From a virus (Duplodnaviria > Heunggongvirae > Uroviricota > Caudoviricetes): 64,000 bases of DNA. This document shows positions 15,344 through 38,257 of the stretch, in pieces. A model generated the notes under the pieces. The model saw nothing but the letters and a program-made list of their open reading frames with translations, did not search any database and had not been told where the DNA came from. The stretch spans positions 68,588 to 132,587 of IMG/VR virus record IMGVR_UViG_3300020577_006835; one strand, written 5' to 3'. How positions within the stretch are numbered: the first letter of the stretch is position 1; every line of letters begins with the position of its first letter. A program made the translations under genes and the position numbers.

Positions 15344-15417
15344 TACCAGGGGTGGGATTCGAACCCACACTGTCACGGTTCTGAACCGTGTGCCTCCTGC
15401 CGTTGGGCTACCCTGGC
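15344..15417 (-). tRNA. tRNA with anticodon CAG (Leu-type anticodon) but class-I (short variable arm) architecture; A73
   Basis: 74 nt; acceptor GCCAGGG/CCCTGGT, perfect anticodon stem CACGG/CCGTG, loop TTCAGAA, T-arm GTGGGTTCGAATCCCAC. Confidence 0.6.
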
Positions 15418-15942
15418 AGCTTTTCTACGTCTACGGTACTGGCGATTAGCCTCTGCACCACACGTCAACGAGGTGAACCCCTTGTTGTTGCCGTAGGTTG
15501 GAGTTTGTGAGTGGCAGTTCGGGCAGAGAAATTCTAGGTTGTCCAACCTGCAGTCCTTGAAATCCCCGTTTTTGTGCTCTACGTGCAGCCGTAGAGCGTT
15601 GCCAAGCCAGTGCCCGGGGTTGCCACAGCTGGCGCACTCGTACCTGGTGCCGGCTTCGATCAGGGCTCTCCGCAGTCTCAGGGCGTTTTCTCGATAAGGC
15701 TTGCTCCGAAGAACGAGAACCTCCTCGTGTGGCTTCTTGCTAGCCGAGGGCAGGCCGGCGTTCCACACAGTTCTACTGAAGTGCGTGGTGTCCAGGTTGT
15801 ACTGCTTGATCCTCAGCGAGATCAGGTTCGCTCCGCCGCCAGTCAGACGCATGTTGAGTGCCCGCATCACGTCTCTGATGCAGCTGCTGCTCGCTACTAT
15901 CGGGGCTAGTACCCCCTTGGTGTACTTCAGGTGTGCTGGCAT
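15373..15942 (-). CDS. HNH homing-endonuclease-like protein
   Basis: HVEHKNGDFKDCRLDNLEFLCPNCH motif; ORF 3' end overlaps tRNA 15344..15417 by about 45 nt, and its start abuts tRNA 15950. Confidence 0.7.
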   Translation of the reverse strand: MPAHLKYTKGVLAPIVASSSCIRDVMRALNMRLTGGGANLISLRIKQYNLDTTHFSRTVWNAGLPSASKKPHEEVLVLRSKPYRENALRLRRALIEAGTRYECASCGNPGHWLGNALRLHVEHKNGDFKDCRLDNLEFLCPNCHSQTPTYGNNKGFTSLTCGAEANRQYRRRRKAARVAQRQEAHGSEP

Positions 15943-15949
15943 GTGATAG

Positions 15950-16023
15950 TGGGTCCGGTGGGAGTCGAACCCACAACTTCTCGGTTAAGGGCCGAGTACT
16001 CTAGCCAGTTGAGTTACGGACCC
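15950..16023 (-). tRNA. tRNA-Lys (anticodon CTT), C at position 33
   Basis: 74 nt; acceptor GGGTCCG/CGGACCC, anticodon stem CTCGG/CCGAG, loop CCCTTAA, T-arm GTGGGTTCGACTCCCAC. Confidence 0.6.
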
Positions 16024-16027
16024 AGAG

Positions 16028-16102
16028 TGCGCTCGGCAGGATTCGAACCTGCGTCGCTCCGGGTAAAGGCCGGCTGCCTGGGCCAGACTAGGCTACGAGC
16101 GC
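16028..16102 (-). tRNA. tRNA-Lys (anticodon TTT)
   Basis: 75 nt; T-arm GCAGGTTCGAATCCTGC identical to E. coli tRNA-Lys; loop CCTTTAC. Confidence 0.65.
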
Positions 16103-16228
16103 GTATAGCTTACACAGAAGAAGGGCGTTGGTGCCGGGCTTCTTCTGTTTGGGCTTCAGCTTCTGCTGGATCGCGCTCATAGCCGTCTGTCTTAGCCTAC
16201 CTCTTGGCCCTGTGTCAAGGGCTCTTTC

Positions 16229-16528
16229 TCACGGTTGTCGAAGGTAGTTCTGGATCTCGGTCGTCAGGGCCGGCGGGTCGTTGGTGTAGAACACGAGCTT
16301 CTGCAGCGCGTCCGAACCGTGCACGGTGACCAGGAGGCCAGCTGGCACAGGCTTGGTCTTCACCCTGCGCGCGGTCGACTTGGAGGGGATGATCAGACCG
16401 ACGCTGACCCGCTTCACGAGCGGGTTCTTGCCGGCCCACCTGATGACCGGCACTGCGTCGTCAATCACAGTCGTATGCCCTTTGTAGTTGAACTTCTTCC
16501 CTTTCAGCACCCTCCTCGGCGTGCTCAT
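16229..16528 (-). CDS. hypothetical protein
   Basis: ORF track; reads like a real protein, whereas the overlapping + ORF is Arg-rich. Confidence 0.4.
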   Translation of the reverse strand: MSTPRRVLKGKKFNYKGHTTVIDDAVPVIRWAGKNPLVKRVSVGLIIPSKSTARRVKTKPVPAGLLVTVHGSDALQKLVFYTNDPPALTTEIQNYLRQP

Positions 16529-17127
16529 GCTTGAGCCCTCTCGCGCGCCCGCTTCTCGCGCATGTGGGTGCGCATCGCCTCACGTTTCGCTTCGCCGCGC
16601 CGAGCGTGTGTCGCCGCGTACGTGCACACCGGCCCGCAGAACTTCTGCCGCCTGTACCTCACGAACACCGCCTCACAGTGTGGGCACTTCCGATACGGGA
16701 ACGGCTGTTCCCGAAGGAGCCTCACAAACTCCGCGACAAGCATCTGCTCGACGGTTCGTGTCTCCCAGATCTCTACGAGCATCTCCCGGGAGGTGTGGAG
16801 GTAGGTTAGGACTGACGCACCAGGCACCGGCAGTCTCACCCCCTCCCACTGCAGGAGGCAGCCCAGGTGGAAGTTCACTTTCGGTAGAAGGGTTCTGAGC
16901 AGATTGGCGGGGTTTACAGCTGGCTCCGCGACAAGAACAACGGAGACCGGCGCAGAATCACGCAGGTTGTGCACCTTGAACTTGGCCGCCTCTTCGACCT
17001 GCTCCTTCAGGCGCGCGTGGGCGGACTCTGACAGCATGTCTACGTCATCGTACTCGGCTGACGCCAGCGCTGCGAACAGCGCTTTCACAGCCCCATGGTT
17101 CTTGAATGCCAACCTGTTGCCGCTCAC
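16525..17127 (-). CDS. hypothetical protein with C-terminal zinc ribbon (CPHCE...CGPVC)
   Basis: ORF track. Confidence 0.5.
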   Translation of the reverse strand: MSGNRLAFKNHGAVKALFAALASAEYDDVDMLSESAHARLKEQVEEAAKFKVHNLRDSAPVSVVLVAEPAVNPANLLRTLLPKVNFHLGCLLQWEGVRLPVPGASVLTYLHTSREMLVEIWETRTVEQMLVAEFVRLLREQPFPYRKCPHCEAVFVRYRRQKFCGPVCTYAATHARRGEAKREAMRTHMREKRARERAQA

Positions 17128-18566
17128 TTGGCGTACCTCGACTTGAAGTTGTTGATGTAGAGCAGAGCGCCCAGCTCGGCGACCTGGTCGGCGAAGTCCC
17201 TGGACAGGTGGTCGCTCACGTCCTGGTGGGCGAACTCGTGCAGGAGGAGCTTGAGCACCTCGACCACGTTGTCCTCACGAAACCAGTGGTGGCTGAGCCG
17301 ACCCACGTTGAAGGTGAGCGGGCTGCCAGGGCCGTAGGTGGCGGCGTAGGGCCAGGTGATGTCGCTCGTGAACTGCACCACGAGGTTCTTGAACCCCAGC
17401 GTGTCCTTGCAGATGATCTGCGAGAAGAGGGCGACCCACTTCATGCCCTCGGTCCACTTCTCGCGCGGGATGAGCTTCTGCTCGTCGCCGGTCTCGGAGT
17501 AGGGCTTCGGGCTCGGCGTCACCTGGCCGGCAGGCAGGGTTGCTGCGAACCGCTTCGTGTTGGCGTGCTCCTCGCGTGACTGTGAGCCTCCGTAGATCAG
17601 CTTGTAGCCCTCGCTGACGGCGATGTTGTTCGCCTCCGGGTCTGAGGGGTCGAACATGACCCGCTTCTCACCCCAGCGGAGGTCCTGCACCCTCTTGAAG
17701 GCCTCCTCCTCGACACGCTCGTCACCGGCAGCTTCACGCACCCAGGCCGAGGTCGCATCCTCAACAGAGAGACGGTGGTGAGACGCGTTCAGCGCGTGCG
17801 TGCGCAGAGCCCGCAGATAGCTCGGCGGCACGTTGTCGCGCTCGATGGTCAGCGGGACGCGCTGCAGCACGTTGTAGTGCCACTTGTCGCCTGACTCGAC
17901 GATCGGGATGCCCATCTCGTAGATCAGGGCTGTCTCGCCAGAAGCGGGCTCGTACAGCTCGACGACGGTCTTGCGCTGCGTGCGCCGCAGCTCCCCATCC
18001 TCGCCGCTGAACTCGGTCTGCAGCGTGGCATCGAGCGAGGTGACGGCGGCCCGCCGCGGGATCTCGATGCCGTTCAGCGTGACCGTGACACCGGCGGGTG
18101 GGATGATAGTGCGGAACGCGTCCATCATCTCTGTCATCTCCGCCTTGGTCGCGCGGAGCCTCGCGGTGAACGTGGTGCCTCGAATCGTGCCCGCGGTGCG
18201 ACTCAGGTGTCGACCGTGGTCGTCGAAGATGAGGGCGCCGGTCGTGCTCGCGATCTTCGCATGGTCGCAGAGCGCAAGTACAAACTTCTCGCCGATGTTG
18301 AAGCGACCGCGCAGGGTGGCGTCGGGCTTCTTCTGACTGGGCGCGAACAGCGTGTACGCGTCACGCAGGTCCTGGAAGCCTACCTCCGAATTGTCCCGGA
18401 CCTCCATCTCGACCCGGCCGCGGAACACGGACTCGGTGAGGGCAACCGAGACCCGATCGGACCCGGCATCGACCGCGTTCTGATACAGCTCGAAGAACAC
18501 GAAAGCCTTGCCCCTGCGTGCGACTTGCTGCGCCAGACCTTTCCGATCCACCTCGAACCATTCCAT
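17124..18566 (-). CDS. GHKL/Bergerat-fold ATPase-like protein with C-terminal HExxH (zincin-like) motif
   Basis: N-terminal ELYQNAVDAG (N-box ExxxNAxDA), DNSEVGF (G1), GRFNIGEKF (G2); C-terminal LLLHEFAHQ. ORF 17124..18599 starts at TTG inside its own promoter, so the start is placed at ATG 18564-18566, which has a GGAGG RBS. Confidence 0.55.
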   Translation of the reverse strand: MEWFEVDRKGLAQQVARRGKAFVFFELYQNAVDAGSDRVSVALTESVFRGRVEMEVRDNSEVGFQDLRDAYTLFAPSQKKPDATLRGRFNIGEKFVLALCDHAKIASTTGALIFDDHGRHLSRTAGTIRGTTFTARLRATKAEMTEMMDAFRTIIPPAGVTVTLNGIEIPRRAAVTSLDATLQTEFSGEDGELRRTQRKTVVELYEPASGETALIYEMGIPIVESGDKWHYNVLQRVPLTIERDNVPPSYLRALRTHALNASHHRLSVEDATSAWVREAAGDERVEEEAFKRVQDLRWGEKRVMFDPSDPEANNIAVSEGYKLIYGGSQSREEHANTKRFAATLPAGQVTPSPKPYSETGDEQKLIPREKWTEGMKWVALFSQIICKDTLGFKNLVVQFTSDITWPYAATYGPGSPLTFNVGRLSHHWFREDNVVEVLKLLLHEFAHQDVSDHLSRDFADQVAELGALLYINNFKSRYAK

Positions 18567-18587
18567 GCGTCGTACCTCCAGTCTCAG

Positions 18588-18616
18588 ATTAGACCACAAC
18601 CATCAATCTTTGTCAA
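18588..18616 (-). promoter_or_regulatory. sigma70-like promoter TTGACA-N17-TCTAAT (minus strand) for gene 17124..18566
   Basis: Reverse complement reads TTGACAaagattgatggttgtggTCTAATctgagactGGAGGtacgacgcATG. Confidence 0.5.
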
Positions 18617-18664
18617 CCGGGTTGACTTTCCCAACCCGATGTGAGAGAACCGTAGCTCGGAGGA

Positions 18665-20281
18665 ATGCACCGCATGGCGAAGGACGACTACACACAGCTG
18701 CAGAAGGACTTTCGAAGCGCACGACGCGTGAGCACACCGCTCATGTTGGTGCGCACGGTCGACGGACGAGAGACGGCACGCAACCTGACGGCAGCCGCAG
18801 CCGACGGGCACCCGGTCATCTGGTGGGACACGGCGACCGGTCTGTCATCGCTCAACAAGCAGGTCGGCGTCAAGGCCCTGCTCGAAGCGCTGACCCCGAC
18901 CGATCAGGACGGTGGCGAGCCGATGACGCCGGAGTCGATCACCTCGCCCGTCGACGCGCTGGCCGTGGCCAACAGGCTGCCCAGGACGTCGATCCTGATC
19001 ATGCACAACGCGCACCTGTTCCTGATCCCCGGCCAGGCGGCCTACCCGCTGATGGTGCAGAGCATCTGGAACCTGCGCGACACCTTCAAGACCAACAAGC
19101 GGCTGCTCGTCCTTCTTACGCCGAACACGTCCCTGCCGCCGGAGCTGGTGCAGGACTTCCTCATCTTCGAGGAGGAGCTGCCCAACCGCGAGCGCTTGCA
19201 GAAGGTGGTCGTCGACATCCACAAGTCGGCCAACGTCGAGGTCCCGAAGCAGGAGGTCGTCAACAAGGCGGTCGACGCGCTCCGCGGCCTGGCCTACAAC
19301 CCGGCCGAGCAGATCACGGCCATGTCGCTCTACATGGACGAGAACAAGCAGGTCGTCTTCAACGTCCAGGAGCTGTGGCGGCGCAAGCGGGAGCTGATCA
19401 ACCAGACCAAGGGTTTGTCGGTCGACGCGCCCAAGGCGACCTTCAAGGACATCGGCGGCCAGGCCCAGATCCAGCTCTTCGGCACGCGGATCTTCAACGG
19501 TCCCTCGGCCCCGAACTGCGTGGTGCGCATCGACGAGATCGAGAAGATGCTGGCCGGCGCAGCGGGTCCGGTCTCCGACACGTCCGGCGTCAGCCAGGAT
19601 GCGCTGGGCGTCGTGCTGCGCGAGATGGAGGACAACGGGTGGCCCGGCATCCTGCTCGTCGGCTCGCCCGGTACGGGTAAGACGCTCTTCTCGACCGCGC
19701 TCGGCACCACGTTCGAGAAGCTCTCGATCGCGCTCGACCTGGGTGCGATGAAGGGCAAGTACGTCGGCGAGTCGGAGGCTGCGATCCGCAACGCGATGAG
19801 CGTCATGCGCAGCGTGTCCGACAACCAGCTGCTGATCATCGGCACCTGCAACAAGCTGGAGGTGCTGCCGCCGGAGCTGCGCCGCCGCTTCAAGCTGGGC
19901 ATCTGGTTCATCGACCTGCCCTCGGCCGAGGAGCGGGACCTGATCTGGCAGATCAACCTCAAGCGCTTCAACCTGGACCTGAGCCAGACGCGGCCCGACG
20001 ACAAGGTCTACACCGGAGCCGACATCCGCAACATCTGCGAGATCGCCTGGCGGCTGTCGACCGACGTGATCGAGGCCTCCAAGTTCATCGTGCCCGTGGC
20101 CATCTCGGACCCGGCCTCGATCCAGCGGCTGCGAGTCCAGGCGCACAACAAGTACCTGTCGGCGGCCTACCCTGGGCCGTACATCATCCCGGCCGGGCAG
20201 GCTCCGGAGGAGCTGGCAGCCGAGGAGGGGAAGCGGGAGATCTCGCTCGACCTCACCGGCGGCAAGAAGTACGGGAACTGA
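18665..20281 (+). CDS. AAA+ ATPase-like protein with atypical motif order; C-terminal KREISLDLTGG
   Basis: GILLVGSPGTGKT (Walker A), YVGESEAAIRN, QLLIIGTCNKLEVLPPELRRRF (sensor-1/Arg-finger region); a Walker-B-like VVRIDEIEK lies upstream of Walker A. Confidence 0.6.
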   Translation: MHRMAKDDYTQLQKDFRSARRVSTPLMLVRTVDGRETARNLTAAAADGHPVIWWDTATGLSSLNKQVGVKALLEALTPTDQDGGEPMTPESITSPVDALAVANRLPRTSILIMHNAHLFLIPGQAAYPLMVQSIWNLRDTFKTNKRLLVLLTPNTSLPPELVQDFLIFEEELPNRERLQKVVVDIHKSANVEVPKQEVVNKAVDALRGLAYNPAEQITAMSLYMDENKQVVFNVQELWRRKRELINQTKGLSVDAPKATFKDIGGQAQIQLFGTRIFNGPSAPNCVVRIDEIEKMLAGAAGPVSDTSGVSQDALGVVLREMEDNGWPGILLVGSPGTGKTLFSTALGTTFEKLSIALDLGAMKGKYVGESEAAIRNAMSVMRSVSDNQLLIIGTCNKLEVLPPELRRRFKLGIWFIDLPSAEERDLIWQINLKRFNLDLSQTRPDDKVYTGADIRNICEIAWRLSTDVIEASKFIVPVAISDPASIQRLRVQAHNKYLSAAYPGPYIIPAGQAPEELAAEEGKREISLDLTGGKKYGN

Positions 20282-20419
20282 GGGGGAGCAGGGGGAGGGC
20301 GCCGCAGAGGCTCGACCCTCCCCCCGCATGGGTGGGGTGAGCCAAACCCTACTCATGTCCGTCAGAGTTGTCAATACGAGGTCGCTGGTGCTAACCGGCC
20401 AGCGGACAGGAGGACGAGG

Positions 20420-20761: not shown

Positions 20762-20771
20762 GGGAGGGGAC

Positions 20772-21270: not shown

Positions 21271-21273
21271 ACC

Positions 21274-21561: not shown

Positions 21562-21584
21562 CACACTCAGCGGTCGAGTGCTAA
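21558..21584 (+). promoter_or_regulatory. promoter-like motif TTGACA-N14-GTGCTAA
   Basis: cTTGACAcactcagcggtcgaGTGCTAAagg, 35 nt upstream of the 21619 start with RBS GAAAGGAG. Confidence 0.5.
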
Positions 21585-23135: not shown

Positions 23136-23136
23136 A

Positions 23137-24438: not shown

Positions 24439-24510
24439 GCCACGCTCGTCTATCGGCTAGGACACCTGATTCTCGATCAGGGAAGCGGAGTTCGACTCTC
24501 CGGCGTGGTA
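24439..24510 (+). tRNA. tRNA-Glu (anticodon CTC)
   Basis: 72 nt; anticodon stem CCTGA/TCAGG, loop TTCTCGA; T-arm CGGAGTTCGACTCTCCG. Confidence 0.75.
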
Positions 24511-24520
24511 CTCGTGCCGG

Positions 24521-24594
24521 GGGTCAGGGGTGCATGCTGGAGCGCACATCGGTCTCCAAAACCGAAGGACTCGGTTCGACTCCGAGCTGACCTG
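24521..24594 (+). tRNA. tRNA-Trp (anticodon CCA)
   Basis: 74 nt; anticodon stem TCGGT/ACCGA, loop CTCCAAA; T-arm CTCGGTTCGACTCCGAG. Confidence 0.75.
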
Positions 24595-24657: not shown

Positions 24658-25107
24658 GTGAAGACTAAGGTTTGCACTAAGTGCGGTGCCAGGAAGCAGC
24701 TCGACCAATTTCACGTCAAGGATAAGCAGAGGGGGACGAGGCGAGCACGCTGTAAGCCTTGCTGGTCGATCTACAGGCGGCAGCACTACCTGGAGAACCA
24801 GAGCAAGTACATCAAGATGTCACGGGCTCGTGTTGTAGAGCATCGCCGCCGTCTTCGATTTCTGATTCTTGAGGCCAAGGCGAAGCCGTGTGCAGACTGC
24901 GACCTCTCATACCCGCCATGGGTGATGCAGTTTGATCATGTGCGGGGCAGGAAGCTCTTTCACCTGGGCGCCTACCGTGAAGACTACGTCTCGGTGCCCA
25001 CACTCCTGAACGAGATCAAGAAGTGCGACGTGGTGTGCGCGAACTGCCACGCTGATCGAACGTACAAGCGAAACCCGTACGACATCCCAGACAGCCCGTT
25101 CGTCTAG
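24658..25107 (+). CDS. HNH endonuclease (small free-standing family shared with 36387..36833 and 37826..38191)
   Basis: GTG start; PCADCDLSYPPWVMQFDHV...KCDVVCANCH; 3' end overlaps tRNA-Glu(TTC) by about 15 nt. Confidence 0.7.
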   Translation: MKTKVCTKCGARKQLDQFHVKDKQRGTRRARCKPCWSIYRRQHYLENQSKYIKMSRARVVEHRRRLRFLILEAKAKPCADCDLSYPPWVMQFDHVRGRKLFHLGAYREDYVSVPTLLNEIKKCDVVCANCHADRTYKRNPYDIPDSPFV

Positions 25108-25165
25108 AGGCCGAGGACGCCGGACTTTCAATCCGGGGACGCGGGTTCGAATCCCGTACGGGCTA
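25093..25165 (+). tRNA. tRNA-Glu (anticodon TTC)
   Basis: 73 nt; anticodon stem CCGGA/TCCGG, loop CTTTCAA; T-arm GCGGGTTCGAATCCCGT. Confidence 0.8.
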
Positions 25166-25192
25166 TTGACAAGGTCACCTCTCATGTGCTAA
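25166..25192 (+). promoter_or_regulatory. promoter-like motif TTGACA-N14-GTGCTAA
   Basis: TTGACAaggtcacctctcatGTGCTAAaacc, immediately after tRNA-Glu. Confidence 0.45.
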
Positions 25193-25248
25193 AACCAGAT
25201 CATCGCGGAGCAACACCGCTCAAGAACGTAGAGAGAAGGAGAGAGAAC

Positions 25249-33046: not shown

Positions 33047-33064
33047 CACAAACGTCTTGAAGGT

Positions 33065-33325
33065 TTGGTAGGATCGTGCGATAGGGCTCGCACACCTGAG
33101 GGGGATGAGTTGGAACGCACGGAGCTGTACCAGTACCTTCAAGAGAATCAGATGCTGATCGAGTCCCTGTCCAACAGTGGCCGGGGGATCTGCAAGCGCA
33201 TCACCAAGCTCAAGAGTCAGCACCTGGAGCATCCGGCTGACCAGGGAGTACTCAGCTCCCTGGTCAGCGCGGTGTCCGAGTTCCGGGCCGAGATGCGACA
33301 ACAGGAGAGGAGGGCCGGCAAGTGA
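33065..33325 (+). CDS. small hypothetical protein
   Basis: ORF track (TTG start). Confidence 0.3.
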   Translation: MVGSCDRARTPEGDELERTELYQYLQENQMLIESLSNSGRGICKRITKLKSQHLEHPADQGVLSSLVSAVSEFRAEMRQQERRAGK

Positions 33326-33528
33326 CCCAGAAGGCCGATAAGGCGATCGAAGCGGTCATGGCCGGCGAAGAGGCGTCCGATGTGGTAGACGCGCTGGGAG
33401 AGGGCGCCTTCTCGGCGGCGATGCCGTTGGAGAGGAGGAGCACCTTCGCAAGATCAGGGAAGGCAGCGGGCACCAGGTACAAGTCGGCCAAGAGGCTGGC
33501 ACCTGTGCCGGTCAAGCCTCCCTCGTAA
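33322..33528 (+). CDS. small hypothetical protein
   Basis: ORF track (GTG start). Confidence 0.35.
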   Translation: MTQKADKAIEAVMAGEEASDVVDALGEGAFSAAMPLERRSTFARSGKAAGTRYKSAKRLAPVPVKPPS

Positions 33529-33539
33529 GGTAGAGGTGG

Positions 33540-33773
33540 ATGGCAGAACGAAAGAAGTTGACGCTGAGGGAAGAGCGGGCACAGCAGAAGAAGATGATGG
33601 CGAAGTACGTGGACAACGTCTTCGCCCACCTGCGCAGGAACCCGGGTCGACCGGTGCCCATGCGCAAGCTCGCCGAGACGCAGGAAATGAAGCCGTGGCT
33701 CCCGCCGGGTTTCCCGGAGGAGATCACGAAGAAGTGGGGCCTGAACTCAGGGAAGCTTGCTGACCTGAGCTGA
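33540..33773 (+). CDS. small hypothetical protein
   Basis: ORF track. Confidence 0.4.
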   Translation: MAERKKLTLREERAQQKKMMAKYVDNVFAHLRRNPGRPVPMRKLAETQEMKPWLPPGFPEEITKKWGLNSGKLADLS

Positions 33774-33793
33774 GGTCCCTTTCGCGTTGTGGT

Positions 33794-34141
33794 GTGGTGG
33801 GGTGGAGGTGGTTGAGAGTGAAAGGATTGGTCCACGCGGAAGAGGGGATCGACTCCTCTCCGATTGTCTGGACGTCTGCAAGGTTGCTCGCTCTGGGTGT
33901 ACTTCACCAGGCGGCACACGATTTCTGGAAGGACGACGACCCAGAAGCTGAGGCTGAGAGCGCACGCGAGTGGTTCTACCAAGGTGATGTCGGCGAGCTG
34001 CCGTACTACCGGGTGTGCCAGGAGCTGCGCATCGACCCGGACTGGTTCCTCGACAGAGTCGAGAGAGACCGTCGCGCCTTCAAGGGTATCCACAGACCGT
34101 CAAGCGCGAACGCACCGATGCGGATCTCGCTGAACGACTGA
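33794..34141 (+). CDS. hypothetical protein
   Basis: ORF track (GTG start). Confidence 0.4.
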   Translation: MVGWRWLRVKGLVHAEEGIDSSPIVWTSARLLALGVLHQAAHDFWKDDDPEAEAESAREWFYQGDVGELPYYRVCQELRIDPDWFLDRVERDRRAFKGIHRPSSANAPMRISLND

Positions 34142-34146
34142 CCCTG

Positions 34147-34173
34147 TTGACAAGCCTGTCATGCGTGTGCTAA
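34147..34173 (+). promoter_or_regulatory. promoter-like motif TTGACA-N14-GTGCTAA
   Basis: gTTGACAagcctgtcatgcgtGTGCTAAaccacccgcATG, coordinates +/-1. Confidence 0.5.
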
Positions 34174-34182
34174 ACCACCCGC

Positions 34183-34410
34183 ATGGCAGACAACCCAAAC
34201 CAAGCACGAGGAGTCGTCAGAGTGTCGGCCCTCGTGCTTGGCCTACTCGCGATCGTCGCGATGTACCAAGGCCTGCACGCCTTCATGAGCGTGGACAACT
34301 ATGAGGGCGGCCGCTGGTACGCAGTCATGGCCCTCGGCTGGGCCATCTACCTGCTGGGCCTCCGAGCGCTGGCGACCGTGCTCGGCTTCATCATGTACGG
34401 GGAACGCTGA
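34183..34410 (+). CDS. small two-TM membrane protein
   Basis: ORF track; hydrophobic segments VSALVLGLLAIVAMY and YAVMALGWAIYLLGLRALATVLGFIMY. Confidence 0.45.
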   Translation: MADNPNQARGVVRVSALVLGLLAIVAMYQGLHAFMSVDNYEGGRWYAVMALGWAIYLLGLRALATVLGFIMYGER

Positions 34411-34411
34411 C

Positions 34412-35497
34412 TTGTACCTGCTGCTCTTGATGGTGGTGCCCCTGGTGGTGGGTGCTGTCGCGATGTTTACCTCGCGCGGCCGAGTCACCTGGAAAGAGTT
34501 CCTGGCCATGGAGGCGCTCTGCCTCTTCCTGCTCGGCGCTGGTGTTTTCATCGCCCGGTGGACGGCCACCTACGACGTCGAGGTCTGGAGCGGCCGCATC
34601 GTCAGCAAGAAGAAGGACTGGGTCTCCTGCGAACACAGCTACAGCTGCAACTGCAGGACAACCGGCAGCGGCAAGAAGAAGAGCACGACCTGCGACACCT
34701 GCTACGAGCACAGCAACGACTGGGACTGGTTGCTCTTCACCTCGAACGGTGAGCGGGTCGAGATCGAGCGCATCGACAGGCGCGGGTCTCAAACACCGCC
34801 GCGGTGGGAGGCTGCCAAGGTTGGCGACGCGACTGCGATCACGCACGCGTTCGACAACTACATCAAGGCCAACCCGGACTCCGTGCTCCGCTTGTCGGGC
34901 ACCATGGAGGCCTACTCTCTGCCCGAGTACCCGAACACGGTCTACGACTACTACTACGTGAACCGAGTGGTCGGTGACGCACCTGTACCCAACAGGCAGA
35001 TGTGGGAGTGGCAGGTCGCAGAGCTGAACGCAGACCTGGGCCGCGCCAAGCAGGTGAACGTGGTCTTCGTCTTCACCAAGCAGGACCCAGGCTTCACCGA
35101 GGCCCTGCGAGAGAAGTGGATCGGCGGCAAGAAGAACGACCTGATCATCATCTTCGGCACCAAGGACGGGACCTTCCTCGACTGGGTCAACATCATCTCC
35201 TGGACCGATTCGGAGATGCTCAAGGTGCAGCTGCGCGATGAGCTGTTGGCCATCAAGGACCTGGGCTACCGAGGCCCGATCCTCGACACCGTCAAGCGCA
35301 TGGTCAAGGAGCAGTTCGTCAGGAAGCCGATGGCCGACTTCAAGTACTTGATGGCCGGCCTGCAGCCTGGGCCAGGAGCGATCGGCGCGCTGTTCTTCCT
35401 GTCGATCGCACTCTCGTGTGGGCTCGTGTTCTGGTTCCACAAGGAAGACGTTTTCGGGGACGAGGATGTCCCTGCAGCATGGAGGAGGAGAGTATGA
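34412..35497 (+). CDS. membrane protein (N-terminal and C-terminal TM helices; Cys-rich segment CEHSYSCNCRTTGSGKKKSTTCDTCYEH)
   Basis: Part of ORF 34301..35497; start set at TTG 34412 just after the previous stop (an alternative ATG is at 34430). Confidence 0.5.
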   Translation: MYLLLLMVVPLVVGAVAMFTSRGRVTWKEFLAMEALCLFLLGAGVFIARWTATYDVEVWSGRIVSKKKDWVSCEHSYSCNCRTTGSGKKKSTTCDTCYEHSNDWDWLLFTSNGERVEIERIDRRGSQTPPRWEAAKVGDATAITHAFDNYIKANPDSVLRLSGTMEAYSLPEYPNTVYDYYYVNRVVGDAPVPNRQMWEWQVAELNADLGRAKQVNVVFVFTKQDPGFTEALREKWIGGKKNDLIIIFGTKDGTFLDWVNIISWTDSEMLKVQLRDELLAIKDLGYRGPILDTVKRMVKEQFVRKPMADFKYLMAGLQPGPGAIGALFFLSIALSCGLVFWFHKEDVFGDEDVPAAWRRRV

Positions 35498-36078
35498 AGG
35501 CAGTAGCAGCAGTCGCAGCGTTGTTCGGAGTGGTCATCGTCTTCGCCCTGGGTGTGGTGCTGGCAGGCGTCGGCTACCGCAACGGCGCCGTGCGCTTCGA
35601 GAACGCGATCGAAGCGTCGTACACCAACAACCAGAACGTGTACGACAACGGGTGGAAGGAAGTGAAGGAGAAGGCGCAGGTGCCGACTCTGGCCGAGAGC
35701 CAGCTGGAGAAGCTCTACAAGTCGGCCTTGCAGGGCCGCTACGGCGACAAGGGGTCGCAGGCCGTGGTCCAGTTCATCCAGGAGCAGAACCCGCATCTGG
35801 AGCCCGCCCTGTACGTGCAGATCCAGCAGTCGGTCGAAGCCTTCAGGCGCAGCTTCACGTCGCACCAGACGACGCTGATCTCGCAGAAGCAGGCCTACAA
35901 GAACTACCTCGACGCCTCGATCAGCGGCATCGTGTTCAACGGTTTCTTCGGCTTTCCGCACATCGACCTGACCAAGTTCGACATCATCACGTCCGACCAG
36001 ACGCAGCAGGACTTCGAGACCAAGAAGTCACAACCGATCGACCTGATCAGCGACAGGCCATTGCAACCGGAGAAGTAA
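35494..36078 (+). CDS. LemA-family membrane protein
   Basis: ORF 35416..36078, start moved to ATG 35494 with RBS; N-terminal TM, then NGAVRFENAIEASYTNNQNVYDNGWKEVKEKAQVPTLAESQLEKLYKSALQGRYG, which is LemA-like. Confidence 0.65.
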   Translation: MKAVAAVAALFGVVIVFALGVVLAGVGYRNGAVRFENAIEASYTNNQNVYDNGWKEVKEKAQVPTLAESQLEKLYKSALQGRYGDKGSQAVVQFIQEQNPHLEPALYVQIQQSVEAFRRSFTSHQTTLISQKQAYKNYLDASISGIVFNGFFGFPHIDLTKFDIITSDQTQQDFETKKSQPIDLISDRPLQPEK

Positions 36079-36386
36079 GCAGTGACGGCTGCTGCACGTG
36101 TAAGCTGACGTGCGACAGCATGGGTCGGTGCAGGAATCACGGCCACTGGTCGTCGGTGACGGCGACAGAAGCGAGTGGGTACGGAGGCGACAACGGCGCC
36201 AGAGTTCCGTCGAAAGGTTCCATGCCAGCCGGGGTGTCCGGGTTCGATCCCTGGGGATACCGCACCAAGTCGGAGGAAGAGCCGACCAGCCGTTCACGAC
36301 CGTGAAACCCATACCGGTTGACAAGAAACGCGGATCTGGGCATAGTCGGTGATCAACGCGAGAGTGGCGAAATTGGCAGCACGCGC

Positions 36387-36833
36387 ATGGGGATGAGCAA
36401 GGAACAAGCACGAGTCTACCACCGCTCCTACTACTACAAGCGGCGACAGAAGCTCTACGATTTCCTCGGTGGAAAGTGCGTGGTGTGCGGTGCAACAGAA
36501 GACCTTGAGTTTGATCACATTGACCCTGCACAGAAGTCGTTCGACATCAAGGATAACCTCACGCTCAGTGAGGCTGTGAAGCAAGAGTTGGAGAAGTGCC
36601 AGTTGTTGTGCCGCGCGCACCACACCGAGAAAACCATCCGGGCGCAGATCAAGGTCAGCTTCGAGCATGGCACGTCGTACGGGTGGCGCAGGGCGCGTTG
36701 TAGTTGTGTAGCGTGCTCGGAGGCCCGCTGGCACTACTACGACAGGCGCAACGCGGCTCGACGTCGCGTGAGAGACAAGCCAAACAAGACCAAGAGACAG
36801 GCTGGGGTGACGGGAACTGGCATACCTCACTGA
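36387..36833 (+). CDS. HNH endonuclease (same family as 24658..25107)
   Basis: ORF 36318..36833, start moved to ATG 36387; GGKCVVCGATEDLEFDHIDPAQK...KCQLLCRAHH; 3' end overlaps the tRNA-like element at 36801. Confidence 0.7.
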   Translation: MGMSKEQARVYHRSYYYKRRQKLYDFLGGKCVVCGATEDLEFDHIDPAQKSFDIKDNLTLSEAVKQELEKCQLLCRAHHTEKTIRAQIKVSFEHGTSYGWRRARCSCVACSEARWHYYDRRNAARRRVRDKPNKTKRQAGVTGTGIPH

Positions 36834-36876
36834 TTCAAAACCAGTGGCACTGTGGGTTCGAGTCCCACCCCCAGTA
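36801..36876 (+). tRNA. tRNA-like gene, anticodon CAA? (irregular D-arm; low confidence)
   Basis: 7-bp acceptor GCTGGGG/CCCCAGT and T-arm GTGGGTTCGAGTCCCAC are good; anticodon stem ACTGA/CCAGT with loop TTCAAAA; D-arm is poor. Confidence 0.35.
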
Positions 36877-36877
36877 T

Positions 36878-36949
36878 ACACCGATAGCTCAGATGGTAGA
36901 GCGCACGACTGATAATCGTGATACGGGAGTTCGATCCTCTCTCGGTGTA
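36878..36949 (+). tRNA. tRNA-Ile (anticodon GAT)
   Basis: 72 nt; ACACCGA TA GCTC AGATGGTA GAGC...CACGA CTGATAA TCGTG...GGGAGTTCGATCCTCTC. Confidence 0.85.
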
Positions 36950-36954
36950 CTCAG

Positions 36955-37028
36955 GCCCACGTAGCACAACTGGATAATGCACCGGACTACGAATCCGGTT
37001 ATTGGGGGTTCAAGTCCCTCCGTGGGTA
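36955..37028 (+). tRNA. tRNA-Arg (anticodon ACG)
   Basis: 74 nt; anticodon stem CCGGA/TCCGG, loop CTACGAA; T-arm GGGGGTTCAAGTCCCTC. Confidence 0.8.
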
Positions 37029-37036
37029 CTTCTCAG

Positions 37037-37110
37037 GGGTCGTTAGCTCAGTGGAGCAGAGCACCACGTTCCGAGCGTGGGGGTCGCAGGTTCGAGTCCT
37101 GCACGGCCTA
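37037..37110 (+). tRNA. tRNA-Arg (anticodon CCG)
   Basis: 74 nt; anticodon stem CCACG/CGTGG, loop TTCCGAG; acceptor has 2 G-U pairs. Confidence 0.7.
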
Positions 37111-37121
37111 CTGAAGCCTGT

Positions 37122-37196
37122 GCGCCAGTAGCTCAGCGGACTCAGAGCGGCGGTTTTCTACACCGAGGGTCGGGGGTTCGATTCCCTCCTGGCGTG
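37122..37196 (+). tRNA. tRNA-Arg (anticodon TCT)
   Basis: 75 nt; acceptor GCGCCAG/CTGGCGT; loop TTTCTAC; T-arm GGGGGTTCGATTCCCTC. Confidence 0.8.
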
Positions 37197-37229
37197 TTGA
37201 AGTAGCAGCAGAAGAAGGAAGGGGAATGC

Positions 37230-37655
37230 ATGAAGAGAAGGATGCGAAAGGCTCTCTTGACGAAGCTCGCCGACTTGTTGGACGACTTCTTCCACACCAT
37301 CAAGCACCTGATTGCCGTGCTGGAGCTGCAGGGTTGGTCGCTGGACAACCTGGCCTTCGGCATGGGCGGCGCGCTGCTGCAGCAGATCGACCGGGACACG
37401 TGTTCCTTCGCCATGAAGGGTTCCTGGGTTCGAGTCGACGGTGTGGAGCGCGAGATCTACAAACAGCCTGTGACCGATTCGAAGAAGAACTCGCTGCGCG
37501 GGCGGCTGGCTCTCATCAAGGATGTCAAAGGACTCTTGACAACAGTAGCTGGTCCGTGCGAAGACGACATCCTCGTCGACACGTATCTCAACGGCGAGGT
37601 GCTCCAGACCTGGGACTACGAACAGGTCAGGGAGCGAGTCCGAGCAGCGATCTGA
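37230..37655 (+). pseudogene. C-terminal fragment (about 140 aa) of a nicotinamide/nicotinate phosphoribosyltransferase (NAMPT-family) gene; the N-terminal catalytic two-thirds are absent from the locus
   Basis: NLAFGMGGALLQQIDRDTCSFAMKGSWVRVDGVEREIYKQPVTDSKKNSLRGRLAL aligns with the NAMPT C-terminus (NIAFGSGGGLLQK..RD..FA.K.SYV..NG.G..VFKDP..D..K.SKKGRLSL); strong RBS; flanked by tRNA and HNH genes. Confidence 0.6.
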
Positions 37656-37751
37656 CCATGAACGACTTCACACACCAGATGCCAAGCCCCGCCAAGGGTG
37701 CGGTTGCGCGACCACGACCGTGGCCGCGACCGTGCCCGTGTCGGTAAGCAT

Positions 37752-37823
37752 CTGGGTGTAAGTCAGTGGCAGACGGCGCCGTTCGGATCGGCGAGGCCGG
37801 GAGTTCGAGTCTCCCCACCCAGA
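37752..37823 (+). tRNA. tRNA-Pro (anticodon CGG)
   Basis: 72 nt; acceptor CTGGGTG/CACCCAG; anticodon stem CGCCG/CGGCG, loop TTCGGAT; T-arm GGGAGTTCGAGTCTCCC. Confidence 0.7.
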
Positions 37824-37825
37824 CT

Positions 37826-38191
37826 CAACCTCCACCCTCCGCTGAGCCTGAGACTGCTCTAGACCGCCGTCGAAGGCGGTGGCGCGAGTGGTACCACCGC
37901 AACAAGCACGATCAGTTCAAGAAGGAGTACTTCAGGAGGACGACGAGGAGAGCGAAAGCCAGGGCTTGGCTGGATAACTACAAGAGGGGGCTGTCTTGTG
38001 CTGAGTGCGGGTTTTCGAACCCAGTAGCACTGGACTTTCACCACACAGATCCGGCGGGCAAGGATTTCAGCTTGGCTGACGCTCTCAACGTCTCTCTTTC
38101 TATCAAGAGGCTGCAAAAGGAAATTCAGAAGTGCGTCGTCTTGTGTGCGAACTGTCACCGGATAGAGCATGCAAGACTGATCGGGATGTAG
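37826..38191 (+). CDS. HNH endonuclease (same family as 24658 and 36387); start codon unclear because the upstream in-frame region (ORF 37766..) runs through tRNA-Pro(CGG)
   Basis: RRRRWREWYHRNKHDQFKKEYF...CAECGFSNPVALDFHHTDPAGK...KCVVLCANCHRIEH; 3' end overlaps tRNA-Pro(TGG) by about 10 nt. Confidence 0.6.
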   Translation, partial: QPPPSAEPETALDRRRRRWREWYHRNKHDQFKKEYFRRTTRRAKARAWLDNYKRGLSCAECGFSNPVALDFHHTDPAGKDFSLADALNVSLSIKRLQKEIQKCVVLCANCHRIEHARLIGM

Positions 38192-38257
38192 CGTAGTCTG
38201 GCCAACGCGCCTGTTTTGGGAACAGGAGACTCGCAGGTTCGAATCCTGTCATCCCGA
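38182..38257 (+). tRNA. tRNA-Pro (anticodon TGG)
   Basis: 76 nt; CGGGATG TA GCGT...CCTGT TTTGGGA ACAGG...GCAGGTTCGAATCCTGT CATCCCG A. The N-terminus of ORF 38216.. is really this tRNA. Confidence 0.75.

What the first reader, a model, noticed from the sequence alone, without database searches (positions are those of the whole stretch)
15344..38257. HNH endonuclease genes systematically overlap tRNA genes; one HNH sits between the two tRNA-Pro genes
Four small HNH ORFs end inside the 5' end of a tRNA: 24658..25107 into tRNA-Glu(TTC); 36387..36833 into the tRNA-like element at 36801; 37826..38191 into tRNA-Pro(TGG); and 15373..15942(-) into tRNA(CAG) at its 3' end, with tRNA-Lys abutting its start. 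The 37826 HNH also has tRNA-Pro(CGG) embedded in its upstream in-frame region, so it lies precisely between two tRNA-Pro isoacceptors. Three of these HNH proteins are paralogs (shared RVYHRSYYYKRRQK... / CxxCG...LDFHH.DP...C..LC..CH architecture). This looks like a family of tRNA-gene-targeting homing endonucleases that has spread through the phage tRNA clusters. Alternatively the tRNA sequence may provide their transcription or translation termination.
Basis: seen in the sequence. Interest (0 to 1): 0.6.

Follow-up and report, generated by a model that had tools for sequence, protein, structure and literature searches.

The report
Homing endonuclease genes wedged between phage tRNAs
Four small selfish nuclease genes sit between the transfer-RNA genes of an uncultured phage and run into the next tRNA; a related phage lacks three of them, so they are mobile insertions of an already known kind.

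Summary
All five tRNAs named in the finding are supported, though 36801-36876 only marginally. Four HNH ORFs end inside the 5' part of the next same-strand tRNA, with overlaps of 10, 15, 33 and 45 nt.

A related phage (about 77-85% identical, assembly GCA_009612995.1) has the same tRNA clusters. It has no HNH at the h24, h36 and h37 sites. At the h15 site it carries an HNH of a different family.

The tRNAs directly beside the HNH genes are the most diverged ones: Trp 64% and Pro(TGG) 73%, against 79-99% for the other orthologous tRNAs. The four inserts lie in the lowest 1-4% of the window for G+C.

Homologues sit in inter-tRNA spacers in more than 20 unrelated phages. Their stop codon often falls on tRNA positions 8-10 (TAG).

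These are free-standing HNH homing endonuclease genes in tRNA operons. This is the arrangement already described for T4 SegB, the T5 F-Tfl enzymes and mycobacteriophage tRNA arrays.

The three "paralogues" are only 25-38% identical to each other. Each is closer to HNHs of other phages, so they are separate acquisitions rather than intragenomic spread. Three further HNH-like ORFs in the window are not near tRNAs.

Verdict: new members of a known kind, of moderate interest.

The parts
15949..16102 (-). tRNA-Lys(TTT) 16027-16102 and tRNA-Lys(CTT) 15949-16023, upstream of h15
   Evidence: ARAGORN. Rfam 52.9 and 65.3 bits. Lys(CTT) is 73% identical to the L100 copy while Lys(TTT) is 97%.
15373..15942 (-). 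h15: a 189-aa HNH endonuclease ORF of family phrog_10822. Its ATG lies 6 nt after tRNA-Lys(CTT), no Shine-Dalgarno sequence is visible, and its last 45 nt are tRNA(CAG) sequence.
   Evidence: (E 1.5e-44). dN/dS is about 0.2 against the L100 homologue. G+C is 57.3%, the 3.5th percentile of the window.
15103..15417 (-). tRNA(CAG) 15343-15417 (75 nt, no long variable arm), tRNA-Cys 15264-15335 and tRNA-Leu(GAG) 15103-15189
   Evidence: Rfam 56.8, 57.8 and 42.3 bits. Identity to L103 is 96%, 99% and 89%.
24439..24594 (+). tRNA-Glu(CTC) 24439-24511 and a non-canonical tRNA-Trp(CCA) 24521-24594. The Trp gene appears to have been imported together with h24.
   Evidence: (the best Rfam hit for the Trp gene is the tRNA-Sec model, 33 bits). 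Identity to relative L004 is 85% for Glu and 64% for Trp.
24658..25107 (+). h24: a 149-aa HNH endonuclease ORF of family phrog_2255, with an N-terminal zinc ribbon and a GTG start 63 nt after tRNA-Trp. Its last 15 nt are tRNA-Glu(TTC) sequence, and the stop is the D-arm TAG.
   Evidence: (E 2e-29). The ORF is absent from relative L004, where Trp and Glu(TTC) are 8 nt apart. G+C is 56.6%, the 1.9th percentile.
25093..25165 (+). tRNA-Glu(TTC), the resident tRNA whose 5' end closes the h24 ORF
   Evidence: Rfam 63.6 bits. Identity to L004 is 89%, and homology resumes at or 1 nt before tRNA position 1.
36318..36346 (+). Promoter-like site (TTGACA, 17-nt spacer, CATAGT) of the tRNA operon. The h36 cassette begins 6 nt after the -10 element.
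   Evidence: The site is conserved in L019, where it directly precedes tRNA(CAA).
36353..36386 (+). Left end of the h36 insert. It carries a 5' fragment of a class-II tRNA-Leu (about 36362-36387, 25 of 26 nt identical to the 5' part of the window's tRNA-Leu(GAG)) and abuts the ATG.
   Evidence: No Rfam hit, as expected for a fragment.
36387..36833 (+). h36: a 148-aa HNH endonuclease ORF of family phrog_4234. Its last 33 nt are tRNA(CAA) sequence, with a TGA stop at the anticodon stem/loop.
   Evidence: (E 2e-32). The ORF is absent from relative L019. The closest homologue, Crossroads gp113, overlaps a short tRNA-Leu(TAG) by 32 nt.
36801..37197 (+). tRNA(CAA) 36801-36876 (76 nt, weak D arm), tRNA-Ile, tRNA-Arg(ACG), tRNA-Arg(CCG) and tRNA-Arg(TCT)
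   Evidence: 31.6, 68.2, 60.3, 60.4 and 57.4 bits. tRNA(CAA), with its odd D arm, is also present in L019 at 88% identity.
37752..37824 (+). tRNA-Pro(CGG), a resident tRNA. The h37 reading frame is open through it, and it contains the only canonical start codon of that frame (GTG 37766).
   Evidence: Rfam 55.2 bits. Identity to L019 is 95%, and homology ends at the discriminator base.
37825..38191 (+). h37: an HNH endonuclease ORF of family phrog_2255/3106, about 121 aa after the tRNA, with no start codon of its own. Its last 10 nt are tRNA-Pro(TGG) sequence, and the stop is tRNA U8-A9-G10.
   Evidence: (E 2e-28). The ORF is absent from L019, where the two tRNA-Pro genes are 14 nt apart. G+C is 55.2%, the 0.9th percentile. 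Gene callers do not call it.
38182..38258 (+). tRNA-Pro(TGG), an allele that differs from the relative's copy and resembles Streptomyces-phage tRNA-Pro genes. It was probably imported with h37.
   Evidence: Rfam 63.9 bits. Identity is 73% to L019, 87% to Faust and 82% to JimJam tRNA-Pro.

Best explanation
The four ORFs are free-standing HNH (His-Me finger) homing endonuclease genes. They belong to three families: phrog_10822, phrog_2255/3106 and phrog_4234. Each has settled in a spacer of a phage tRNA operon.

Shown here:
- They are present/absent or replaced between related phages.
- They fill the spacer up to the 5' end of the next tRNA.
- They have no stop codon of their own and no visible ribosome-binding site.
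- They have atypically low G+C.
- They are flanked on one side by a tRNA allele that has been swapped.

Inferred mechanism:
- In a mixed infection the enzyme cuts or nicks the endonuclease-free allele, within or next to a conserved tRNA gene.
- Recombinational repair from the carrier genome copies in the endonuclease gene together with the neighbouring tRNA allele (co-conversion).
- The imported tRNA allele is presumably resistant to cleavage.
- The genes are transcribed as part of the tRNA precursor.
- Because the stop codon lies inside the downstream tRNA, RNase P processing of that tRNA would separate the ORF from its stop codon. This would keep expression of a potentially toxic nuclease low. 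The same idea was proposed for T4 segB.
For: HNH identity:
- PHROG profile matches at E 1e-28 to 1e-44.
- The conserved CxxC...[DH]H...N...CxxCH motif is present.
- h15 is under purifying selection, dN/dS about 0.2.

Empty or differently filled sites in relatives:
- L004 has Trp and Glu(TTC) 8 nt apart.
- L019 has the promoter directly upstream of tRNA(CAA), and the two tRNA-Pro genes 14 nt apart.
- L103 has a phrog_4234 HNH in the h15 slot, overlapping tRNA(CAG) by 10 nt.
- L100 has a mosaic h15 homologue that reads through a whole tRNA-Leu.

Other signatures in the window:
- Swapped flanking tRNAs: Trp 64%, Pro(TGG) 73% and Lys(CTT) 73%, against 79-99% for the others.
- Low G+C, at the 0.9th to 4th percentile.

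Second natural pair:
- JimJam and StarPlatinum have about 99% identical flanks.
- The HNH sits exactly between two tRNA-Pro genes.
- The sequence differences cluster in the first roughly 45 nt of the downstream tRNA.

Generality across phages:
- 12 of 13 sampled h15-, h24- or h37-family loci, and 6 of 6 sampled h36-family loci, have a tRNA within 200 nt.
- The stop codon lies at tRNA positions 8-10 in 6 of 15 tabulated junctions, and 0-1 nt before the tRNA in 3.
- A tRNA-Leu is adjacent in 8 of 12 h15-family loci.

Precedent:
- SegB recognises the tRNA T-psi-C motif and co-converts the tRNA region.
- Its stop codon is cut off by maturation of tRNA-Arg.
- The T5 F-Tfl HNH enzymes lie in a tRNA cluster (PMC2330249).
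- SegB-tRNA association is widespread (PMC13096335).
- HNH is the most widespread coding sequence in tRNA arrays (PMC5966550).
Against: - No cleavage site is known, so targeting of tRNA DNA is inferred only from position and isotype association.
- The polarity of each difference is not proven. It could be insertion in the window or loss in the relative.
- L004, L019 and L103 are separate contigs of one metagenome assembly. I assume, but have not shown, that they belong to one phage.
- h37 has no start codon of its own and may be a decaying copy.
- h36 has CRAHH in place of the second CxxCH.
- At the h36 site neither flank shows a swapped allele.
- The flanking tRNA isotypes of the h24/h37 family are diverse (Glu, Pro, Met, Thr, Lys).
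- Some h24-family hits appear to lie outside tRNA clusters, for example Patience gp5 and Beckerton gp4, which sit near a genome end. I did not inspect these.
- Non-HNH small ORFs also overlap tRNAs by 10 nt (JimJam gene 166, Phabba gp183). The overlap itself therefore needs no special function.
Confidence: 0.72

Rival explanations
1. tRNA clusters are simply permissive landing zones. Any small selfish or accessory ORF can lodge between tRNAs without harm and gains free transcription there. On this view the HNH enzymes do not recognise tRNA genes, and the overlaps are a by-product of tight packing in G+C-rich DNA, which has few stop codons.
For: - Many non-HNH small ORFs are interleaved with tRNAs in JimJam and Phabba. 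Two of them overlap a tRNA by the same 10 nt.
- In A+T-rich phages (FelixO1, Michonne) the HNH ORFs stop 1 nt before the tRNA rather than inside it.
- The flanking isotypes of the h24/h37 family are diverse.
Against: - tRNA-Leu is adjacent in 8 of 12 h15-family loci drawn from very different phages. I estimate a binomial p of roughly 5e-4, assuming a 20% chance that a Leu gene lies on either side.
- h36-family members sit upstream of the same short tRNA-Leu family, with three different anticodons.
- An HNH lies between tandem tRNA-Pro genes in two unrelated phages.
- In JimJam the differences cluster inside the downstream tRNA, as expected for co-conversion.
- SegB demonstrably recognises tRNA-gene sequence (PMC2330249).
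Confidence: 0.2
2. The HNH proteins are domesticated phage functions rather than mobile elements. Possible roles are help with packaging, degradation of host DNA, amplification of tRNA genes, or anti-defence. They would be kept in tRNA operons for co-regulation.
For: - h15 is under purifying selection.
- SegB has been shown to amplify tRNA and anti-defence loci (PMC13096335).
- HNH proteins next to terminase genes have known packaging roles (established knowledge). Such a terminase-adjacent HNH exists in JimJam (gene 101).
Against: - Three of the four are absent from a close relative whose synteny is otherwise the same, and the fourth slot holds a different family.
- G+C is atypically low.
- None is adjacent to a terminase gene.
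- h37 lacks a start codon.
- The closest homologues are scattered over phages of unrelated hosts.
Confidence: 0.06
3. The ORFs are decayed remnants or chance reading frames. The apparent overlap would then be an artefact of extending ORFs to the first stop codon.
For: - h37 has no start codon and is not called by gene finders.
- Pfam HNH scores are below the cut-off for all four.
- NCBIfam and PDB sequence searches give nothing useful.
Against: - PHROG matches are strong and span the whole domain.
- The catalytic and zinc-binding motifs are intact in h15, h24 and h37.
- dN/dS is about 0.2 for h15.
- The ORFs are intact and identical in many independent metagenome contigs.
Confidence: 0.02

Closest known systems
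T4 SegB, a free-standing GIY-YIG homing endonuclease in the T4 tRNA gene cluster (PMC2330249; PMC13096335)
   Same: - It lies between tRNA genes.
- It is absent from otherwise homologous tRNA regions of relatives (T2L, RB1, RB3).
- It is transcribed within the tRNA precursor.
- Its stop codon is separated from the ORF by maturation of the downstream tRNA.
- It drives co-conversion and preferential inheritance of neighbouring tRNA genes.
- SegB homologues are statistically associated with tRNAs across phages.
   Different: - The catalytic family differs: GIY-YIG for SegB, HNH here.
- For SegB the recognition site (the T-psi-C motif) and homing were shown experimentally. Here nothing has been tested biochemically.
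- This window carries four such genes from three HNH families. One has no start codon, and several read 15-45 nt into the tRNA.
[quoted passage not shown] 2004, as cited in PMC2330249)
   Same: These are HNH-family endonuclease ORFs inside a phage tRNA cluster. Down-regulation through processing of the primary transcript was proposed for them as well.
   Different: I did not test sequence relatedness to the T5 enzymes. That these enzymes nick DNA, and where they cut, is from my memory of that paper and was not checked here.
HNH endonuclease genes in tRNA arrays of mycobacteriophages, Streptomyces phages and mycobacterial plasmids (PMC5966550; PMC6409571; Pope et al. 2014 as cited there)
   Same: - The protein families are the same. 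The nearest homologues are HNHs of Phabba, Crossroads/Zaria, JimJam and StarPlatinum, all located in tRNA arrays, several with the same ORF-tRNA overlap.
- Those papers already implicate the HNHs in diversifying tRNA repertoires.
   Different: - The papers describe co-occurrence only. In the passages I read they do not describe the docking of the ORF end onto tRNA position 1-10, the empty-site comparisons, or the family-to-isotype links seen here.
- The present phage is an uncultured, unclassified lineage. Only its tRNA-Pro matches known phages at the DNA level.

Membership tests
HNH / His-Me finger endonuclease superfamily | Significant match to HNH family profiles | tested here: met
   PHROG HNH families: h15 E 1.5e-44, h24 E 2.3e-29, h36 E 1.9e-32, h37 E 2e-28.
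HNH / His-Me finger endonuclease superfamily | Pfam PF01844 (HNH) at or above the gathering score | tested here: not met
   Scores are h15 20.8, h36 16.6 and h37 15.7 bits against a cut-off of 21.4. h24 has no hit. The Pfam model is short and these families are divergent. NCBIfam gives nothing relevant.
HNH / His-Me finger endonuclease superfamily | Catalytic [DH]-H...N...H core flanked by two zinc-binding CxxC pairs | tested here: met
   The alignment has invariant C58, C61, H73, C103, C107 and H111 (h37 numbering). h15 has CASCG...HVEHKNGD...N...CPNCH. Exception: h36 has CRAHH in place of the second CxxCH.
HNH / His-Me finger endonuclease superfamily | Beta-beta-alpha-metal fold and nuclease activity | not tested
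   No structure was predicted, because only window sequences could have been used as the alignment. A PDB sequence search with h24 found nothing. Nuclease activity needs an experiment.
Free-standing homing endonuclease gene | Sporadic presence or absence at one locus between otherwise syntenic relatives | tested here: met
   h24, h36 and h37 are absent from L004 and L019. The h15 slot holds a different HNH family in L103. JimJam versus StarPlatinum gives a second pair.
Free-standing homing endonuclease gene | Intergenic position that leaves the neighbouring genes intact | tested here: met
   All flanking tRNAs remain complete. The inserts end at tRNA position 1.
Free-standing homing endonuclease gene | Co-conversion of flanking markers | tested here: inconclusive
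   The tRNAs adjacent to HNH genes are the most diverged: Trp 64%, Pro(TGG) 73%, Lys(CTT) 73%, against 79-99% for the others. In JimJam the differences cluster in the downstream tRNA. This fits co-conversion but does not prove it. No such tract is seen at the h36 site.
Free-standing homing endonuclease gene | The enzyme cleaves the endonuclease-free allele near the insertion point and promotes its own inheritance | not testable with these tools
   This needs in vitro cleavage assays and phage crosses.
tRNA-cluster homing endonucleases of the SegB / T5 F-Tfl type | The gene lies inside a tRNA operon, on the same strand, without a promoter of its own | tested here: met
   All four ORFs share the strand of their tRNA cluster. 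The only promoter-like site near h36 is the operon promoter at 36318-36346. None was found near h24 or h15. The scan is a simple consensus search.
tRNA-cluster homing endonucleases of the SegB / T5 F-Tfl type | The ORF's stop codon lies at or within the 5' end of the downstream tRNA, so that tRNA maturation truncates the mRNA | tested here: met
   At the sequence level the stops fall at tRNA positions 8-10, 13-15, 31-33 and 43-45. The processing itself was not tested.
tRNA-cluster homing endonucleases of the SegB / T5 F-Tfl type | The recognition site lies within tRNA-gene sequence | not testable with these tools
   There is only indirect support: the family-to-isotype associations and the position of the diverged tracts.
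tRNA-cluster homing endonucleases of the SegB / T5 F-Tfl type | GIY-YIG catalytic domain (SegB proper) | tested here: not met
   All four ORFs match HNH profiles only. They are therefore analogues of SegB, not members of its protein family.

The most novel reading that the evidence does not exclude
The docking of HNH ORFs onto the 5' end of a tRNA may be a conserved functional design rather than a packing accident. Two parts to this reading:

1. Expression. Endonuclease mRNAs would be delimited by tRNA processing. They start a few nucleotides after one tRNA, have no Shine-Dalgarno sequence, and have their stop codon inside the next tRNA. Only unprocessed precursors could yield full-length enzyme. 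RNase P-cut transcripts would become non-stop mRNAs.

2. Specificity. Individual HNH subfamilies would be specialised on particular tRNA isotypes, for example phrog_10822 and phrog_4234 on tRNA-Leu genes. They would carry a cleavage-resistant tRNA allele with them. That would make them the main vehicle by which tRNA alleles, including the non-canonical short tRNA-Leu and the Sec-like tRNA-Trp seen here, move between phages of different phyla. Such movement could help phages evade tRNA-targeting host defences.
Probability: 0.25. Interest if true: 0.6.

Novelty: new member of a known kind. Interest (0 to 1): 0.35.

Why it matters
The window and its metagenomic relatives give four natural comparisons in one phage lineage: filled versus empty, or filled versus differently filled. 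JimJam and StarPlatinum add a fifth, nearly isogenic pair.

These comparisons define the candidate homing sites of three uncharacterised HNH families to within a few nucleotides. They also show which tRNA alleles travel with each gene.

The comparisons suggest that endonuclease-driven gene conversion helps shape tRNA repertoires in large phages. That repertoire has recently been tied to escape from tRNA-cleaving defence systems through work on SegB.

The finding does not reveal a new kind of system.

Tried and rejected
- IMG/VR scans with the proteins flanking h37 and h24 found no relatives.
- An exact look-up of the AAA protein found nothing. A homologue search with the 138-aa neighbour of h15 found only the protein itself.
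- Look-ups of exact window proteins returned 13 contigs that are 98.5-100% identical to the window. They carry no presence/absence information.
- Three of those contigs (L010, L011, L014) have unrelated ends that join at 36669, 36124 and 36812. I treat them as chimeric assemblies rather than alternative junctions.
- Rfam on the isolated tRNA-Leu fragment upstream of h36 gave no hit. The fragment rests on the 25/26-nt match alone.
- The h24 leader contains CGTGATGTAGTGT, which resembles the 5' end of tRNA-Pro(TGG). It scored no better than other chance alignments, so I do not claim it.
- I considered that the poor D arm of tRNA(CAA) was damage caused by the HNH insertion. I rejected this because the HNH-free relative has the same D arm.
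- I considered a tRNA intron or intron-encoded endonuclease. I rejected this because the ORFs lie between complete tRNAs, not inside them.
- The PDB sequence search and NCBIfam added nothing.
- I did not predict a structure, because only window sequences could have been supplied as the alignment.

Full report
**1. Source of the window**

The window has 62.7% G+C. At the DNA level it matches known phages only through tRNA-Pro(TGG), which resembles Streptomyces phage tRNA-Pro genes at 81-87.5%. One large protein has its only good phage match in a 642-kb uncultured phage. Thirteen metagenome contigs are 98.5-100% identical to parts of the window. It is therefore an uncultured phage, probably large, that has been sampled repeatedly.

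**2. Check of the observation**

ARAGORN finds 20 tRNAs, including all five named in the finding. Rfam RF00005 supports each of them:

| tRNA | Rfam score (bits) | Note |
|---|---|---|
| Pro(TGG) 38182 | 63.9 | |
| Glu(TTC) 25093 | 63.6 | |
| tRNA(CAG) 15344 | 56.8 | |
| Pro(CGG) 37752 | 55.2 | seen only with the laxer filters |
| tRNA(CAA) 36801 | 31.6 | just above the gathering score of 29; badly paired D arm |

The four ORFs and their overlaps are as described:

| ORF | Coordinates | Overlap with next tRNA | Stop codon |
|---|---|---|---|
| h15 | 15373-15942(-) | 45 nt into tRNA(CAG) | TGA, tRNA positions 43-45 |
| h24 | 24658-25107 | 15 nt into tRNA-Glu(TTC) | TAG in the D arm |
| h36 | 36387-36833 | 33 nt into tRNA(CAA) | TGA at the anticodon stem/loop |
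| h37 | ends at 38191 | 10 nt into tRNA-Pro(TGG) | TAG, the tRNA's U8-A9-G10 |

- h15 starts 6 nt after tRNA-Lys(CTT).
- One correction is needed. Position 37826 is a CAA codon. The only canonical start in that frame is GTG 37766, inside tRNA-Pro(CGG), and gene finders skip this ORF.
- The fraction of positions at which a 3' end falls in the first 45 nt of a same-strand tRNA is 0.007. For four of four that gives about 2e-9.

**3. Identity of the proteins**

- Pfam HNH scores stay under the cut-off for all four.
- PHROG profiles are decisive. h15 matches phrog_10822 at E 1.5e-44. h24 and h37 match phrog_2255/3106 at E 2e-29 and 2e-28. h36 matches phrog_4234 at E 2e-32.
- The zinc-binding cysteines and the catalytic His/Asn are conserved. 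The exception is h36, which has CRAHH in place of the second CxxCH.
- h24, h36 and h37 are distant paralogues: phmmer about 1e-8 and 25-38% identity.
- Each is closer to HNHs of other phages. h24 is 51% identical to Phabba, h36 is 45-50% identical to Crossroads and Zaria, and h37 is 54% identical to Felixounavirus and Milchi.
- They are therefore separate acquisitions, not a family that multiplied inside this genome.

**4. Comparison with relatives**

Homologue searches with neighbouring proteins led to contigs of a related phage in assembly GCA_009612995.1 (about 77-85% identity) and to a mosaic relative, L100.

- *h24 site.* L004 has tRNA-Glu(CTC), tRNA-Trp and tRNA-Glu(TTC), with 8 nt between the last two and no HNH. 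Homology with the window resumes at or 1 nt before position 1 of tRNA-Glu(TTC).
- *h36 site.* L019 has the same promoter-like site (TTGACG/CATAGT), followed after 8 nt by tRNA(CAA). In the window a 448-nt insert sits between them, beginning 6 nt after the -10 element.
- *h36 insert.* It starts with a 5' fragment of a class-II tRNA-Leu that is 25 of 26 nt identical to the window's tRNA-Leu(GAG). I read this as a scar from an earlier tRNA-Leu context.
- *h37 site.* L019 has tRNA-Pro(CGG) and tRNA-Pro(TGG) 14 nt apart. Homology with the window stops exactly at the end of tRNA-Pro(CGG).
- *h15 site.* L103 has, in the same slot between tRNA-Lys(CTT) and tRNA(CAG), an uncalled 131-aa HNH of the h36 family. 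It starts 8 nt after the Lys tRNA and ends CCA GGG TAG, 10 nt into tRNA(CAG).
- *h15 homologue in L100.* Similarity to the window breaks just after the catalytic motif. The ORF then reads through an entire tRNA-Leu(GAG).
- *Selection on h15.* dN/dS against the L100 copy is about 0.2.

**5. Signatures of import**

- Orthologous tRNAs are 79-99% identical between the window and its relatives, apart from tRNA-Lys(TTT), which is 75% identical to the L103 copy and does not adjoin an HNH gene. The tRNAs that adjoin an HNH gene are lower: Trp 64%, Pro(TGG) 73%, and Lys(CTT) 73% against L100, where Lys(TTT) is 97%.
- The window's tRNA-Pro(TGG) is 87% identical to that of Streptomyces phage Faust.
- The four inserts lie at the 0.9th to 4th percentile of the window's G+C distribution.
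- None has a visible Shine-Dalgarno sequence, unlike neighbouring genes.

**6. Generality across phages**

*The JimJam / StarPlatinum pair*
- In Streptomyces phage JimJam an HNH (gene 109) lies between two tRNA-Pro(TGG) genes and overlaps the second by 10 nt.
- Its near-isogenic relative StarPlatinum lacks that HNH.
- The flanks are about 99% identical, and the differences cluster in the first roughly 45 nt of the downstream tRNA-Pro.

*Homologues in other phages*

| Phage | Position of the HNH gene |
|---|---|
| Phabba | overlaps tRNA-Met by 10 nt |
| Crossroads gp113 | overlaps a short tRNA-Leu(TAG) by 32 nt |
| GodonK, Smoothie | overlap the next tRNA by 10 nt |
| Vibrio phage D69 | overlaps the next tRNA by 15 nt |
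| Francesca, FelixO1, Michonne | stop 0-1 nt before the next tRNA |
| Mx1, phiPsa347 | unannotated homologues between two tRNAs |

*Counts*
- Of 13 sampled h15-, h24- or h37-family loci in unrelated phages, 12 have a tRNA within 200 nt. All six sampled h36-family loci do.
- Eight of twelve h15-family loci touch a tRNA-Leu.
- h36-family genes precede the same short tRNA-Leu family, with three different anticodons.
- Sampling was from the best-scoring hits, not at random.
- I did not inspect some h24-family hits that appear to lie outside tRNA clusters, such as Patience gp5.

**7. Interpretation**

- The data fit free-standing homing endonuclease genes that live in tRNA operons and exchange the neighbouring tRNA alleles by co-conversion.
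- That the enzymes cut tRNA-gene DNA is an inference. It rests on position, the isotype association, the diverged tracts and the SegB precedent.
- The ORF-tRNA overlap arises because the inserts end at tRNA position 1 without a stop codon of their own. The first in-frame stop is often the conserved U8-A9-G10.
- The overlap itself is not specific to HNH genes. Other small ORFs in JimJam and Phabba overlap tRNAs by the same 10 nt.

**8. Comparison with what is known**

- T4 SegB (GIY-YIG) sits in the T4 tRNA cluster and is absent from T2L, RB1 and RB3. It recognises the tRNA T-psi-C motif, cuts tRNA genes and causes preferential inheritance of the tRNA region.
- The SegB authors note that maturation of tRNA-Arg cuts between the last sense codon and the stop codon of segB. 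They propose this as negative control, and they say the same for the T5 HNH enzymes F-TflI, II and IV in the T5 tRNA cluster (PMC2330249).
- SegB homologues are statistically associated with tRNAs and can amplify tRNA genes to escape a tRNA-cleaving defence (PMC13096335).
- HNH genes are reported as the most widespread coding sequence in tRNA arrays of mycobacteria and their phages, and are implicated in diversifying the tRNA repertoire (PMC5966550, PMC6409571).
- Nuclease genes are also reported at the boundaries of genetic exchange between phages (PMC10448857, from its title; I did not read the paper).
- The finding is therefore a new set of members of a known kind.

**9. Limits on the word "systematically"**

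- The window holds three more His-Me nuclease ORFs away from tRNAs. These are 42742-43569 (PF02945, 63 bits), 53653-54396 and 61064-61780.
- Two tRNA clusters have no HNH: Met-Met at 11931-12084 and Gln-Gln-Arg at 50007-50250.

**10. Verdict**

- Novelty is low to moderate. Interest is 0.35.

Noticed in passing
window 52416-52550 (+): A tRNA-like element. Its acceptor, D and T arms fit the Rfam tRNA model (38.7 bits), but 75 nt stand in place of the 13-nt anticodon region. ARAGORN does not call it. A long ORF (52491/52581-53672) starts inside or just after it.
   Followed up: partly
window 37230-37655 (+); L019 1760-4074: The 141-aa ORF after the tRNA-Arg genes is only the C-terminal remnant of a nicotinate phosphoribosyltransferase (PF04095). 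The relative L019 has a full NMN-adenylyltransferase/Nudix-like gene and a full-length NAPRTase at this place. About 2 kb is therefore missing from the window. The window also has an extra tRNA-Arg(CCG) that L019 lacks.
   Followed up: partly
window 24521-24594 (+): The tRNA with anticodon CCA (Trp) next to h24 is non-canonical. Its best Rfam match is the tRNA-Sec model (33 bits, below that model's gathering score of 47). It is only 64% identical to the relative's tRNA-Trp.
   Followed up: partly
window 15343-15417 (-) and 36801-36876 (+): Two 75-76-nt tRNAs carry leucine anticodons (CAG, CAA) but lack the long variable arm of bacterial tRNA-Leu, and both have G1-U72. They align with short tRNA-Leu genes of mycobacteriophage Crossroads and Streptomyces phage JimJam, so this is a family shared among actinobacteriophages. 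Their amino-acid identity is unknown.
   Followed up: partly
window 42742-43569, 53653-54396, 61064-61780 (+): Three more His-Me finger nuclease ORFs that are not near tRNAs. The first is a 275-aa Endonuclease_7 protein (PF02945, 63 bits). The second is a helix-turn-helix plus endonuclease VII/HNH-like ORF (phrog_3322, phrog_1035). The third is a 238-aa ORF with an HVDH...N...N motif (phrog_26577, phrog_1035). The last two lie in low-G+C patches.
   Followed up: partly
window 5225-9286 (+): The portal-like gene (about 1330-1350 aa) carries precomputed hits to Intein_splicing (twice), Hint_2 and HNH_3. It is therefore interrupted by one or two inteins, one with a homing endonuclease domain. This is another class of selfish element in the same window.
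   Followed up: no
L010 1-82, L011 1-324, L014 1-724 (joining the window at 36669, 36124 and 36812): Three short JGI contigs that otherwise match the window at 99.8-100% begin with unrelated sequence. One of these ends looks like a bacterial pilin-type gene. The L014 junction falls inside tRNA(CAA). These are probably assembly chimeras, but I did not examine them further.
   Followed up: partly
window 16087-16216 (-): A promoter-like TTGACA-N17-CTAAGA site is followed by a 30-codon ORF that reads into tRNA-Lys(TTT) and stops at the D-loop TAG. Its 3' part is conserved in L100 and L103. Similar TTGACA-N17-CTAAAR motifs follow other tRNA clusters, for example at 25168-25196.
   Followed up: no
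L017 1-240 versus window 16528-17145: A 98.5%-identical variant contig lacks the 200-aa gene at 16525-17127. This is another presence/absence difference close to the h15 cluster.
   Followed up: no
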